64,000 bases of DNA from Amphiscolops sp. MND2022. Taxonomy: Eukaryota. Made by a program: the position numbers. The stretch covers positions 74,214,001 to 74,278,000 of the forward strand of contig OZ076413.1 in assembly GCA_964187785.1 (NCBI GenBank). Direction: 5' to 3'. Positions within the stretch are counted from its first letter, which is position 1. Each line of letters begins with the position of its first letter. This document shows, one piece after another, positions 42,201 through 45,200 of this stretch.

Positions 42201-45200
42201 CCTGATTCGATTCAACAACGAGTGCATCAGGGGTACGTTGATTGGTAGCAGATATCAAAGTGGGAGAATTATTAACCCAGTTGTTAACTCGGGTTGACTG
42301 ATGTTCGTGGCTCTCCTCACTCAACAGTGATAGCGTCTCCTGGAATTCTTCATTTGTCGCCGACAGATCATCTTGAAGTTCTAATTCAATCAGTGTTGCC
42401 TCAGCCAGTTTTTTGCGATTCTCTTCCTGCACCTCGGCGACTCCAAGGGCAAGTTCTTCCTTGAGACGCTCTTGTTCTTGCTGCATTCGTTTGATTTCAA
42501 GATCTTGCTTTTGCTGAGTCAGTCGGAGTGCAGCTTCATTTTGCTTCACAATTTCTTCACGCCTGTGTTTTGCAAGGAGTAGCTCTTTCTGCCGTTGACT
42601 TGACGTCTTTGATCGAAGAGAGCTTGAAACTTTACTGGACTTTGTCTTGTTTGTAGATGGAACTATTGAAGTTTGCGAAGCGTTGTCGGTTTGCAGACAT
42701 TTCTCCAGTTAATTGCGAGCTTTCGTCAGTATTTCATCGTTTCTGGCAGCAACGTCGTTTAACCACTTTTCCAAGTCTGGCTTCACTGACTCTGGGTTGG
42801 TTGATTTGTTGGCTTAGTCTAGGAGTTGTTCATTTTTTGCAAAGGCTTTAGTCATAGCTTCCTCACACGAGGTGACTAATCGATCAACGCGAACACGTCG
42901 TTCGGCATTTCCAATGGCGTCATTGAGCTTTTGCTGGATCTTGTTGAGCTCCGCTTCGGCTTTAGTGCGGCTATCATGCAACTTGGCGACTTTCTCTTGC
43001 ATCCTATCAGCCATTGAATGTTTTCTTTTGCCTTTTTTTGATCAATATAGTGTGTTATTGGGACAGGGATTGTATCGTTCTCAGCGCTAAATTATATTCG
43101 AAACAGTAGAATCAATTTCAGAACATCAACCAGACAACTAAGTCTGGACACAGTTCTGAAAATCAACTATGCTGTTATCAATTATTGAAAATTCGACAGT
43201 AACAATAAAAAAAACACTGACACCAATTGTTTTAGAGGATGTTGCGGTTGGAAGACGGTTAAATTGTTTGTTTTGGGTTAAAAGTAGGCCCTAAGGAACT
43301 ACGAGGGCGGTACAAGACGGGAGTAGCGCATAACACGCAACGACGGTAGTAAAAAAGTTGTTTTGAACGTCAACCGGACAGTCAAGTCCTGACGCAGTCC
43401 AAAACTATGGAAAAAAGTTGTTGCGACTTCAACCTGACAATGAAGTCTGGACACTGTCACAACAACAAGGCGTTTCGGAGGAAGAAATTTCACTCTGATT
43501 TGAAGCAGCGCTCTTCAAAGCTTTACGGGCACGTTTACTTGGTCGCTTAGGGCGACTTTTGGCTGTAATCTGGGCTAGATCGGTTTCTTTTCAGAGAATG
43601 ATGTCAAATTATTTAAGTTCAAACTCAGGTCTCTGGTGTATTGCTTTCAATTCATTCAAAATTTGCGGGTCATGTTGTTTTCGTGTGGAAAAGAAATCGG
43701 TTTCAATTCTGAAAACAGGAACGTTTTGCGTTTTTAGAACATCAGAAATGTCGGGCGTTCGAATTCGGTGGCAATACACAAGAGCCCGGAGTTTGTTTTC
43801 TAGAGATTTCAAGATTTCTAGCAACTCAGAAACAGACAGTGCTCGAAAATAGTTGCTTTAATGCTTTGACAAGCTATTATTCAGCACATCATGCCAGATA
43901 GCAATCTCAGTTTTTTTAGCGAATTCTTTTTGTAACAAATTTTGAACGACTTTTTGTGGGTTTTTCGCGTGATTATTCAAACTAAGGCCCGGTATCGTGT
44001 AAATTTTTTCGTTGGAGGCTTTTCTTTTTTCGGGGGTTAATATATCAAGAGCATGATGCAACGAGCTCGCACCCAAAATAAACACCATTACATTTTAAAA
44101 TATAGTAATTTCTTTTTACACAGCGCAAAAGGTAAAAATTTCGCTCAGAAGGAAGTTTTTTTAGGCTCGAATCAACTTCTAACAATGATGAGAACGTTAG
44201 GTTATATTACCGAATTTTCACAAAGGCCTTGCTATGAATGAAGCACCAAATCGATAGTTTTGAAAAGACTTTTTTTCCAAGCTCAGTTTTAAAAATACCA
44301 GTTAGTTGTAGTAGTCGGGTTCGAGGGTCACTCATTCTGAATTGAGATCAATGTTCTTCCCTTTCTGGGATCAAGTGAGGGTTCACCTTTGGGATGCCGA
44401 GGATTTCCTCTGTCCGGGTTCCCTCGTCGTCTGGGTTTTGATGAGTCCCAGTCGTCTAGGGTTTTGATGAGTCCCAGTCGTCTAGGGTTCTGATGAGTCC
44501 CAGTCGTCTAGGGTTCTGGACCAGTTTCACCAGAGGAAATTGAAATTCGATTGCTTTTGGCAAAGTCTCCTCTATGGCAGCAATATCACTACAGTCGTCC
44601 ACCAAAATTATTTTTTTGACGAATTTGAGTGGACTTCTGTTGAGAATACTGACAACGGCTCTGAGAATTTCCGACGGAGCTTCGTCGAAGATTATGATGA
44701 CAATTGAAGTCGAGGGCAGGTCCTCGTCGTACTTGAGCTTCAAACAATCCGGGTGTCTCTTGTCGCCGATACTTCTGTCCAGGGGGATACGCTCACTGGC
44801 CAGTATGTCGAAATTGTTTTCCTTCAACCTCTTCGTGGATATTTCTACATCCTCCCCCGAGTGTCTGACTCCGGAACCATTTTGACCTGGGCTGTTTTCC
44901 AGACCCACCAAGGTTAAGTTGAAGAAGGGATCTTTCTTGCCTTTCTTTCACTGGCTGGGAAAAAGCCTCTCAATGGCCACCATGTAATTCTTTAGAGAAA
45001 CTAAAGCTTGTATTGTCAATCAAAAATAAAATAACAATGAAAGTTGAGGAAAATTATTATTATTAACCGCCAAGTCAAAACTTGATCACACAAACATTAA
45101 AAATGACTCATTTTATGATATGAATAGCAAGGCCATTTCTAGAGTATTTTAACCCAAATCGGAGAAATATTTCCAAAATATAAAATATTTTACATGTCCG

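What the first reader, a model, noticed from the sequence alone, without database searches (positions are those of the whole stretch)
44426..44950. Host GALNT (O-glycosylation enzyme) fragment transduced inside Pao-2, right after the PBS
Seen: about 450 nt of uninterrupted ppGalNAc-T coding sequence, sense to the element, between matched LTRs with a TSD. It ends in a 26-bp tandem repeat that stutters the RLGLI codons. Known: the catalytic DxH motif lies just downstream and is missing, so it cannot be an active enzyme. Inference: mRNA capture by RT template switching, with slippage at the breakpoint. It could direct TE-derived small RNAs at the parent gene.
Basis: partly seen in the sequence, partly recalled or inferred. 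Interest (0 to 1): 0.68.

Follow-up and report, generated by a model that had tools for sequence, protein, structure and literature searches.

The report
Host glycosyltransferase fragment inside a retrotransposon
A defective Pao-type retrotransposon carries, right behind its primer-binding site, an intron-less and enzymatically dead piece of a host GalNAc-transferase gene, an example of a known way in which such elements pick up host messenger RNA.

Summary
A BEL/Pao LTR element lies on the minus strand at 36491-45304. It has 322-bp LTRs (96.9% identical), TG..CA ends, a 5-bp ATATC target duplication and an 18-nt PBS. From at most 7-18 nt after the PBS, in the element's sense, about 470 nt (44958-44486) encode residues ~60-222 of a polypeptide GalNAc-transferase (tblastn E=5e-46; PDB GALNT10 E=2e-23). 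The piece ends in a 26-bp array of 3.5 copies. The DxH motif, the rest of the catalytic domain and the lectin domain are absent, and the frame has no Met.

RNA origin is supported indirectly. The 4 nearest partial relatives all break at two shared exon-like boundaries, and the fragment reads through both. It has no poly(A) and no duplication of its own.

Template switching by reverse transcriptase is the best mechanism, but it is inferred. The parent gene and insert-free sister copies could not be reached. One 98%-identical ORF (P0052) exists elsewhere; whether it is an allele or a second copy is unknown. The small-RNA idea is untested.

This is a new member of a known kind, LTR-mediated retroposition (PMC5131818).

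The parts
45305..45309 (.). target-site duplication ATATC, on the element's 5' side
   Evidence: Identical 5-mer at both outer LTR ends.
44983..45304 (-). 5' LTR of the Pao-type element (322 bp, TG..CA ends)
   Evidence: 96.9% identical to 36491-36812, 10 mismatches.
44965..44982 (-). primer-binding site, 18 nt, starting TGG directly after the LTR
   Evidence: Read. It matches the PBS of the neighbouring Pao element. It is complementary, 12 of 13 by my reading, to the 3' part of the tRNA at 34976-35049.
44486..44958 (-). GALNT-derived fragment, about residues 60-222 of a ~590-aa ppGalNAc-T: end of the stem plus the first half of the GT-A catalytic domain. Open frame 44459-44947; listed ORF 44456-44911.
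   Evidence: GC is 0.469 against 0.38 in the adjoining leader.
44426..44518 (-). 26-bp tandem array, 3.5 copies, built from the last GALNT codons (NPRRLGLI[R/K]). It closes the frame.
   Evidence: TRF score 166. Units listed. A shortened, imperfect fourth unit follows.
44089..44425 (-). rest of the leader, between the array and ORF0
   Evidence: No ORF of note and no similarity to GALNT or to the other Pao element.
43609..44088 (-). ORF0, an element-borne reading frame upstream of gag, shared with the neighbouring Pao element (27799-28146). Broken by 1 in-frame stop.
   Evidence: blastn 43520-44089 against 28367-27798, 66%. tblastn count. No Pfam family.
41404..43014 (-). gag region, broken: at least 1 in-frame stop and at least 1 frame change
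   Evidence: ORF pieces. Compared with the Pao-1 gag ORF, which carries DUF1759.
36967..41015 (-). pol (protease, RT, Pao 'peptidase A17' region, integrase zinc finger, integrase core, DUF5641). Broken: 2 in-frame stops and 1 frame change over the part covered by relative P0071.
   Evidence: Pfam: PF05380 1.6e-40, PF17921 1.3e-08, PF18701 8.8e-22. RVT_1, rve, DUF1758 and Asp_protease_2 fall below their cut-offs. Break counts.
36813..36830 (-). stretch next to the 3' LTR where a polypurine tract is expected (only partly purine-rich)
   Evidence: Read. Weak; not tested further.
36491..36812 (-). 3' LTR
36486..36490 (.). target-site duplication ATATC, on the element's 3' side

Best explanation
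A BEL/Pao LTR retrotransposon carries in its 5' leader a partial, intron-less copy of a host polypeptide GalNAc-transferase mRNA. The most likely origin is LTR-mediated retroposition. A host GALNT mRNA was packaged with the element's RNA. During minus-strand DNA synthesis the reverse transcriptase left the element's leader for the GALNT mRNA in mid-exon, at the RRLGLI(R/K) codons, where repeated short jumps left the 26-bp array. It copied about 500 nt towards the mRNA's 5' end and returned to the element's RNA at or next to the PBS. The chimeric DNA then integrated as an ordinary element, making the ATATC duplication.

The fragment is a passenger. It is presumably transcribed from the 5' LTR as part of the leader, but it cannot give an enzyme. 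This copy is itself defective: gag, pol and ORF0 are all broken.

Shown: the anatomy, the identity of the fragment and its incompleteness. Indirectly shown: absence of introns. Inferred: the switching events, their order, and that capture came before integration.
For: - Element anatomy and target duplication outside the LTRs.
- Pao domains in the order expected.
- The fragment is on the element's sense strand and starts at most 7-18 nt after the PBS.
- It is continuous over two boundaries where 4 of 4 nearest partial relatives break (P0053 and P0197 on both sides of one exon-like block; P0064 and P0069 at the start of the next).
- Its 3' end lies inside the block that P0064 and P0069 read through to DxH and beyond.
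- There is no poly(A), the mRNA 3' end is absent, and no direct repeat flanks the fragment.
- GC is 0.469 against 0.38 in the leader and 0.317 in the LTR.
- PBS-to-ORF0 distance is 876 nt here and 914 nt in the neighbouring Pao element, which fits replacement of leader sequence rather than pure addition.
- P0052 (98% identical, 150 aa, from another contig) ends at the same residues, so the first repeat units are shared with it.
- The same mechanism is described for Pao/BEL elements of Drosophila (BATUMI) and mosquito (BEL18_AG), with partial mRNA copies and 2-26 bp of extra sequence at some junctions: PMC5131818, passages read.
Against: - The parent gene was not found. The best full-length relative is 51% identical, the next representative after P0052 is 45%, and the best partial ones are 71-77%. 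Its exon structure is therefore assumed from relatives.
- 5 of 5 more distant partial relatives (P0054, P0055, P0063, P0247, P0208) read through the second boundary. An intron-poor parent would remove the argument for RNA origin.
- Microsimilarity at the two junctions, the signature of template switching, could not be measured.
- The neighbouring Pao element is only 67% identical and shows no similarity in this part of the leader, so it cannot serve as the empty state.
- If the nearest relatives are the true parent lineage, 23-29% protein divergence with 163 codons still open is more than neutral decay would be expected to leave.
- In the cases of PMC5131818 the retrocopy replaced part of the element's ORFs. 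Here all ORF regions are still present.
Confidence: 0.6

Rival explanations
1. Capture through a read-through, spliced transcript (the classical model for retroviral oncogene capture). An element sat upstream of or inside the GALNT gene in sense. A donor site just behind the PBS was spliced to a GALNT exon, giving the 5' junction. Only the 3' junction, at the 26-bp array, arose by a reverse-transcriptase switch.
For: The 5' junction lies directly behind the PBS, where retroviruses have their main splice donor (recalled, not tested). The fragment is in sense and lacks introns. PMC5131818 names this similarity-independent route as an alternative.
Against: No evidence that the fragment's first base is the start of a parental exon. 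No ORF piece covering the upstream exon was recovered among the 150 representatives listed. No donor-like site was tested.
Confidence: 0.12
2. Later insertion at this locus. After integration, a break in the leader of this one copy was repaired with a piece of GALNT cDNA or of an intron-less GALNT paralogue. The 26-bp array then comes from replication slippage.
For: Only one copy of the family is in the window. No insert-free or insert-bearing sister could be inspected. P0052 could be the same locus in another assembly: 2 real residue differences in 150, against about 10 expected if two copies had diverged as much as the LTRs have (P about 0.003).
Against: The position flush with the PBS and the sense orientation would be coincidences. 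The pol search returned no ORF at or above 95% identity, and none from a contig of P0052's length among the 120 listed. That is unexpected if P0052 were the same locus with the same ORFs.
Confidence: 0.15
3. DNA-level capture (ectopic recombination or gene conversion) from a genomic GALNT copy.
For: It cannot be excluded if the parent has no introns here. More distant relatives are continuous over the second boundary.
Against: The nearest relatives have both boundaries. There is no intron or flanking genomic sequence at either end. tblastn finds no other GALNT part in the window.
Confidence: 0.07
4. LINE-made processed pseudogene that landed inside the element.
For: It is intron-less.
Against: No poly(A). 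The 3' two thirds of the coding sequence and the 3' UTR are missing, whereas such copies keep the 3' end. No flanking duplication.
Confidence: 0.02
5. A maintained, functional module of the element family: a truncated GALNT-like peptide or an RNA element under selection.
For: 163 codons are open in a copy whose own genes are broken. Two sequences are 98% alike, while the nearest cellular relatives are 71-77%.
Against: No Met in the frame and one stop upstream. The frame is closed by the out-of-frame repeat. No signal anchor, DxH or lectin domain. The two differences between the copies are both amino-acid changes.
Confidence: 0.04

Closest known systems
LTR-mediated retroposition in metazoans (Tan et al. 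2016, Genome Res 26:1663, PMC5131818; abstract and passages read), including cases made by the Pao element BATUMI in Drosophila and BEL18_AG in mosquito
   Same: A partial, intron-less host mRNA copy flanked on both sides by sequence of one LTR element. No poly(A) and no duplication of its own. Truncated at the 3' side. Extra short sequence at a junction. The chimera sits between LTRs and can be co-transcribed.
   Different: In that paper the retrocopy replaced part of the element's ORFs in all cases. Here all gag-pol regions and ORF0 are still present and only leader sequence may have been replaced. Microsimilarity at the junctions, central to that paper, could not be tested here. The junction flush with the PBS and a 3.5-copy 26-bp array are not described in the passages I read. 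Its supplements were not seen.
Bs1 of maize and other plant LTR elements that carry host gene fragments (cited in PMC5131818 as Jin and Bennetzen 1994, and Elrouby and Bureau 2001 and 2010; those papers not read)
   Same: Host gene pieces carried between the LTRs of an LTR element.
   Different: Plant, non-Pao elements. Bs1 is non-autonomous and combines several genes (as summarised in PMC5131818).
Acutely transforming retroviruses (oncogene transduction; cited in PMC5131818 as Swain and Coffin 1992, and Goodrich and Duesberg 1990; not read)
   Same: Sense-oriented, intron-less host sequence inside the element, made by read-through and/or reverse-transcriptase switching.
   Different: Here the captured piece is a dead fragment in the leader, not an expressed gene.
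Retrocopies that yield small silencing RNAs against their parent gene (PxyMasc retrocopies, PMC9674220; search listing and start of abstract only)
   Different: Nothing here shows small RNAs, and the identity of the fragment to its parent is unknown.

Membership tests
BEL/Pao LTR retrotransposon | Pair of LTRs with TG..CA ends and a short target duplication | tested here: met
   322-bp LTRs, 96.9% identical; ATATC on both sides.
BEL/Pao LTR retrotransposon | PBS next to the 5' LTR, complementary to a tRNA 3' end | tested here: met
   An 18-nt stretch starting TGG, close to the PBS of the second Pao element, and complementary to the 3' part of the tRNA at 34976-35049.
BEL/Pao LTR retrotransposon | gag, protease, RT, RNase H, integrase in that order, with Pao-specific Pfam families | tested here: met
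   PF05380 Peptidase_A17 at 1.6e-40, PF17921, PF18701 DUF5641. RVT_1, rve and DUF1758 are present but below their cut-offs.
LTR-mediated retrocopy (PMC5131818) | Host-derived sequence without introns | tested here: inconclusive
   Continuous over two boundaries seen in 4 of 4 nearest partial relatives. The parent itself was not found, and 5 of 5 more distant partial relatives lack the second boundary.
LTR-mediated retrocopy (PMC5131818) | Flanked on both sides by sequence of one LTR element; no poly(A); no duplication of its own | tested here: met
   PBS on one side; leader, ORF0 and gag on the other. No A-run and no flanking direct repeat.
LTR-mediated retrocopy (PMC5131818) | Microsimilarity between mRNA and element at the switch points | not testable with these tools
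   This needs the parent mRNA and an insert-free copy of the family. Neither was reachable.
Polypeptide GalNAc-transferase (GT27) as an enzyme | Complete GT-A catalytic domain with the DxH metal site | tested here: not met
   Only positions 1-69 of 168 of PF00535 match. DxH lies 18-20 residues past the end of the similarity in relatives.
Polypeptide GalNAc-transferase (GT27) as an enzyme | Second catalytic half (PF02709), ricin-type lectin domain (PF00652) and N-terminal membrane anchor | tested here: not met
   Full-length relatives carry PF02709 and PF00652. tblastn with three of them finds nothing beyond residues 56-222 anywhere in the window.
LINE-type processed pseudogene | Poly(A) tail, retained mRNA 3' end, flanking duplication | tested here: not met

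The most novel reading that the evidence does not exclude
The GALNT-derived leader segment is not a decaying passenger. It would be a feature kept by a sub-lineage of this Pao family, either as an RNA module or as a source of sense and antisense small RNAs that match a host O-glycosylation gene. This would explain why 163 codons are still open and 98% identical in two sequences, while the element's own genes are broken and the nearest cellular relatives are only 71-77% identical.
Probability: 0.06. Interest if true: 0.6.

Novelty: new member of a known kind. Interest (0 to 1): 0.3.

Why it matters
The locus is a clean, fully bounded example of host mRNA capture by a Pao-type element in an animal genome. 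Both junctions are preserved, one flush with the PBS and one marked by a 26-bp stutter. If the parent gene and sister copies can be found, the two switch points can be read base by base. That would add a BEL/Pao case in which the element kept all its coding regions. For annotation it matters more simply: the ORF is a gene fragment inside a transposon and should not be called a GALNT gene.

Tried and rejected
- Search for the parent gene. One search (longer proteins) gave 51 hits, the best 51% identical. One search (similar length) gave 19 hits: one at 98% (P0052), then 71%, 77% and 66% partial ORFs. One search (all 1.84 billion representatives) gave only P0052 above 45% apart from the short P0197 (55%). 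No parent was found.
- The neighbouring Pao element as the empty state. Rejected: it is 67% identical in pol and has no similarity where the insert sits.
- Family copy count through the pol ORF. 873 proteins at E<=1e-50, with 120 listed. The closest are 92%, 92% and 89%. No genomic context is available, so the presence of the insert in those copies cannot be read.
- tRNA-like look of the Pao-2 LTR (about 45200-45260). Rfam gave no match at E<=1 and ARAGORN gave none, so this is dropped as unsupported.
- ORF0. No Pfam family above cut-off. The Atlas gave only a weak bacterial Hpt lead, with 166 shared features, below the 170 guide value. Left as unknown.
- A 10-nt inverted repeat around the array (44403-44412 and 44531-44540). 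About 0.24 such pairs are expected by chance in 711 nt (my estimate). Not used.
- A possible likeness between the peptide encoded across the PBS and the residues of P0001 and P0191 just upstream of the fragment. It rests on four residues, offset by two, and is too thin to count as microsimilarity.
- One search failed because my coordinates included a stop. The comparison was made with other coordinates.
- Not used: genome contigs (bacteria and archaea only), phage, plasmid and E. coli collections. Closed: metagenome contigs, viral contigs and paper supplements, including those of PMC5131818, which hold its junction data.
The exon-like ORF pieces were compared one by one.

Full report
**What is there**

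The window has no N. A direct-repeat scan finds a pair 8492 bp apart. Alignment and blastn define it as two 322-bp LTRs, 36491-36812 and 44983-45304. They differ at 10 positions (96.9% identity), begin TG and end CA. The 5-mer ATATC lies immediately outside both.

Between the LTRs, all on the minus strand, lie ORF pieces that match these Pfam families:
- Pao 'peptidase A17', PF05380, E=1.6e-40.
- Integrase zinc finger, PF17921.
- DUF5641, PF18701.
- Below their cut-offs: RVT_1, rve, DUF1758 and an aspartyl protease.

The element is therefore a BEL/Pao LTR retrotransposon on the minus strand, and 44983-45304 is its 5' LTR.

Directly inside that LTR is an 18-nt stretch starting TGG (44982-44965). 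It closely resembles the stretch in the same position of a second Pao element in the window. It is also complementary to the 3' part of the tRNA called at 34976-35049. I take it as the PBS.

**The fragment**

The minus-strand ORF 44456-44911 (151 codons) is GalNAc-transferase-like.
- Pfam matches Glycos_transf_2 at 31.4 bits, but only profile positions 1-69 of 168.
- In the PDB sequence search 16 of 16 distinct sequences at E<=0.001 are chains of this enzyme type. GALNT10 (2d7i_A) is best, E=2.2e-23, chain residues 62-187.
- tblastn with the full-length relative P0001 aligns its residues 56-222 to 44983-44486 (E=5.3e-46). With three full-length relatives it finds nothing else in the 64 kb at E<1.
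- By eye, credible similarity starts at about 44958-44947 (the KKGKKDPFF stretch, matching QKGKVDPYF of P0001), behind one in-frame stop. That is at most 7-18 nt after the PBS.
- The open frame has 163 codons and contains no Met.
- Its GC content is 0.469, against 0.38 for the adjoining leader and 0.317 for the LTR.

**The end of the fragment**

Similarity stops at RRLGLI(R/K). In alignment A3 the relatives P0064, P0069, P0001 and P0063 continue from there to DAH or DSH, 18-20 residues on. In the window the 26 bases that encode NPRRLGLI(R/K) are instead repeated head to tail: 3.5 copies, 96% matches, TRF score 166, at 44426-44515. Because 26 is not a multiple of 3, each copy is read in another frame and the ORF closes in the second copy. 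A shortened, imperfect fourth unit follows. The fragment cannot be an enzyme: it has no anchor, no DxH, no second catalytic half and no lectin domain.

**What lies beyond the fragment**

After the array come 337 nt of leader. Then comes a reading frame I call ORF0 (43609-44088). Its DNA is 66% identical to 27798-28367 of the neighbouring Pao element, where it is an open 115-codon ORF. ORF0 is therefore the element's own. It has no Pfam family and only a weak Atlas lead.

The distance from PBS to ORF0 is 876 nt here and 914 nt in the neighbour. That fits replacement of about 540 nt of leader rather than pure addition, but the two elements are too far apart (67% in pol) for this to be more than a hint. 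The neighbour has no GALNT sequence.

**State of the element**

As it stands the copy is defective.
- Against relative P0071, pol shows 2 in-frame stops and 1 frame change.
- gag shows at least 1 frame change, and at least 1 in-frame stop between its ORF pieces.
- ORF0 has 1 in-frame stop.

I give counts only.

**RNA or DNA origin**

No eukaryotic genome collection was available, so the parent gene could not be fetched. The protein collections gave this:
- No full-length relative is closer than 51%. No representative other than P0052 is closer than 55%.
- Four short ORFs from unnamed contigs are the nearest cellular-type relatives. Each looks like one exon read through into intron.
- P0053 (71%) and P0197 (55%) are similar only from GQNG or GQYG to NRSP(L), and both diverge on both sides of that block.
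- P0064 (77%) and P0069 (66%) become similar exactly at (E)F(I/L)KEIILVDD and run on through DxH.

So 4 of 4 nearest relatives mark the same two boundaries, and the window fragment is continuous over both. Its 3' end also lies in the middle of the block that P0064 and P0069 read as one piece.

Against this, 5 of 5 more distant partial ORFs (P0054, P0055, P0063, P0247, P0208) read through the second boundary. That intron is therefore not universal, or those sequences come from transcripts.

I conclude that an RNA origin is likely but not proven.

**Other origins considered**

- A LINE-made processed pseudogene is excluded. There is no poly(A), the mRNA's 3' two thirds are absent and no duplication flanks the piece.
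- A later, local insertion cannot be excluded (see the next section).
- A spliced read-through transcript could have made the 5' junction. Whether the fragment starts at an exon start is unknown.

**Copies**

P0052 (150 aa, from a 626,798-bp contig of an unnamed source) is 98% identical and ends at the same residues, so it shares at least the first repeat units. Apart from the start codon it differs at 2 residues. Comparison with the relatives suggests one change in each sequence.

For the same locus in another assembly: if the two had diverged as much as the LTRs of this copy have (3.1%), about 10 residue changes would be expected (P of 2 or fewer is about 0.003). That speaks for the same locus, a recent duplicate, or constraint.

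For a different copy: the pol search found no ORF at or above 95% identity, and none from a contig of that length among the 120 listed (best 92%). That is unexpected for the same locus with the same ORFs.

The question stays open.

**Mechanism**

The best-supported reading is LTR-mediated retroposition as described by Tan et al. 2016 (PMC5131818; abstract and passages read). A host mRNA is packaged with the element's RNA. Reverse transcriptase switches into it and back. This gives a partial, intron-less copy between element sequences, without poly(A), and sometimes with 2-26 bp of extra sequence at a junction. Pao/BEL elements are among the documented agents.

Here the switch into the mRNA would lie at the 26-bp array and the switch back at or next to the PBS. 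The array itself could also be later replication slippage, although its presence in P0052 makes it at least as old as the split of the two sequences.

The difference from the published cases is that the element's coding regions were all kept.

**The small-RNA idea**

This has a precedent in another system (PMC9674220, listing only), but no data bear on it here.

**Verdict**

This is a new member of a known kind, of modest interest.

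Noticed in passing
26430-35262: A second Pao-type element on the plus strand (PF05380 6.8e-42, DUF1759, rve). Its 5' LTR is 437 bp (26430-26866). On the 3' side only the first 197 bp are present (34783-34978). They abut a tRNA (34976-35049, minus strand; Rfam 32.7 bits; ARAGORN Ile-GAT). An inverted copy of the first 200 bp of the LTR follows (35262-35061). LTR positions 51-105 are 80% identical to that tRNA, and the tRNA's 3' part is complementary to the PBS of both Pao elements. The head-to-head LTR pieces around a tRNA are unexplained.
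   Followed up: partly
27799-28146 (+) and 43609-44088 (-): Both Pao elements carry a reading frame upstream of gag (ORF0, about 115-160 codons, 66% DNA identity). It has no Pfam family and only a weak Atlas lead to bacterial Hpt domains. It may be an unrecognised accessory gene of this Pao lineage.
   Followed up: partly
1589-17114: Long direct repeats 14.07 kb apart (1589-3046 and 15659-17114, 96-98% identical). Between them are ORFs matching RVT_1 and a gag-type aspartyl protease. This is probably a large LTR element of another kind with LTRs of about 1.5 kb.
   Followed up: no
50442-54969 and 62357-63436: A unit of about 2.34 kb repeated twice in tandem (90-98% identity), with a third, more distant copy (60-68%) about 9 kb further on. 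It lies next to minus-strand ORFs with RNase H, integrase zinc finger and aspartyl protease matches (59799-62754).
   Followed up: no
45200-45260: The Pao-2 LTR holds a stretch that looks by eye like a tRNA T-arm and D-arm. Neither ARAGORN nor Rfam (E<=1) supports it.
   Followed up: yes
44403-44412 and 44531-44540: A perfect 10-nt inverted repeat brackets the 26-bp array. About 0.24 such pairs are expected by chance in the 711 nt scanned, so it is probably not meaningful.
   Followed up: partly
one search hit list: The only named relatives of the pol ORF are from the acoel Convolutriloba macropyga, at 54-58% identity. All closer ones are unnamed. The host of the window stays unidentified.
   Followed up: no
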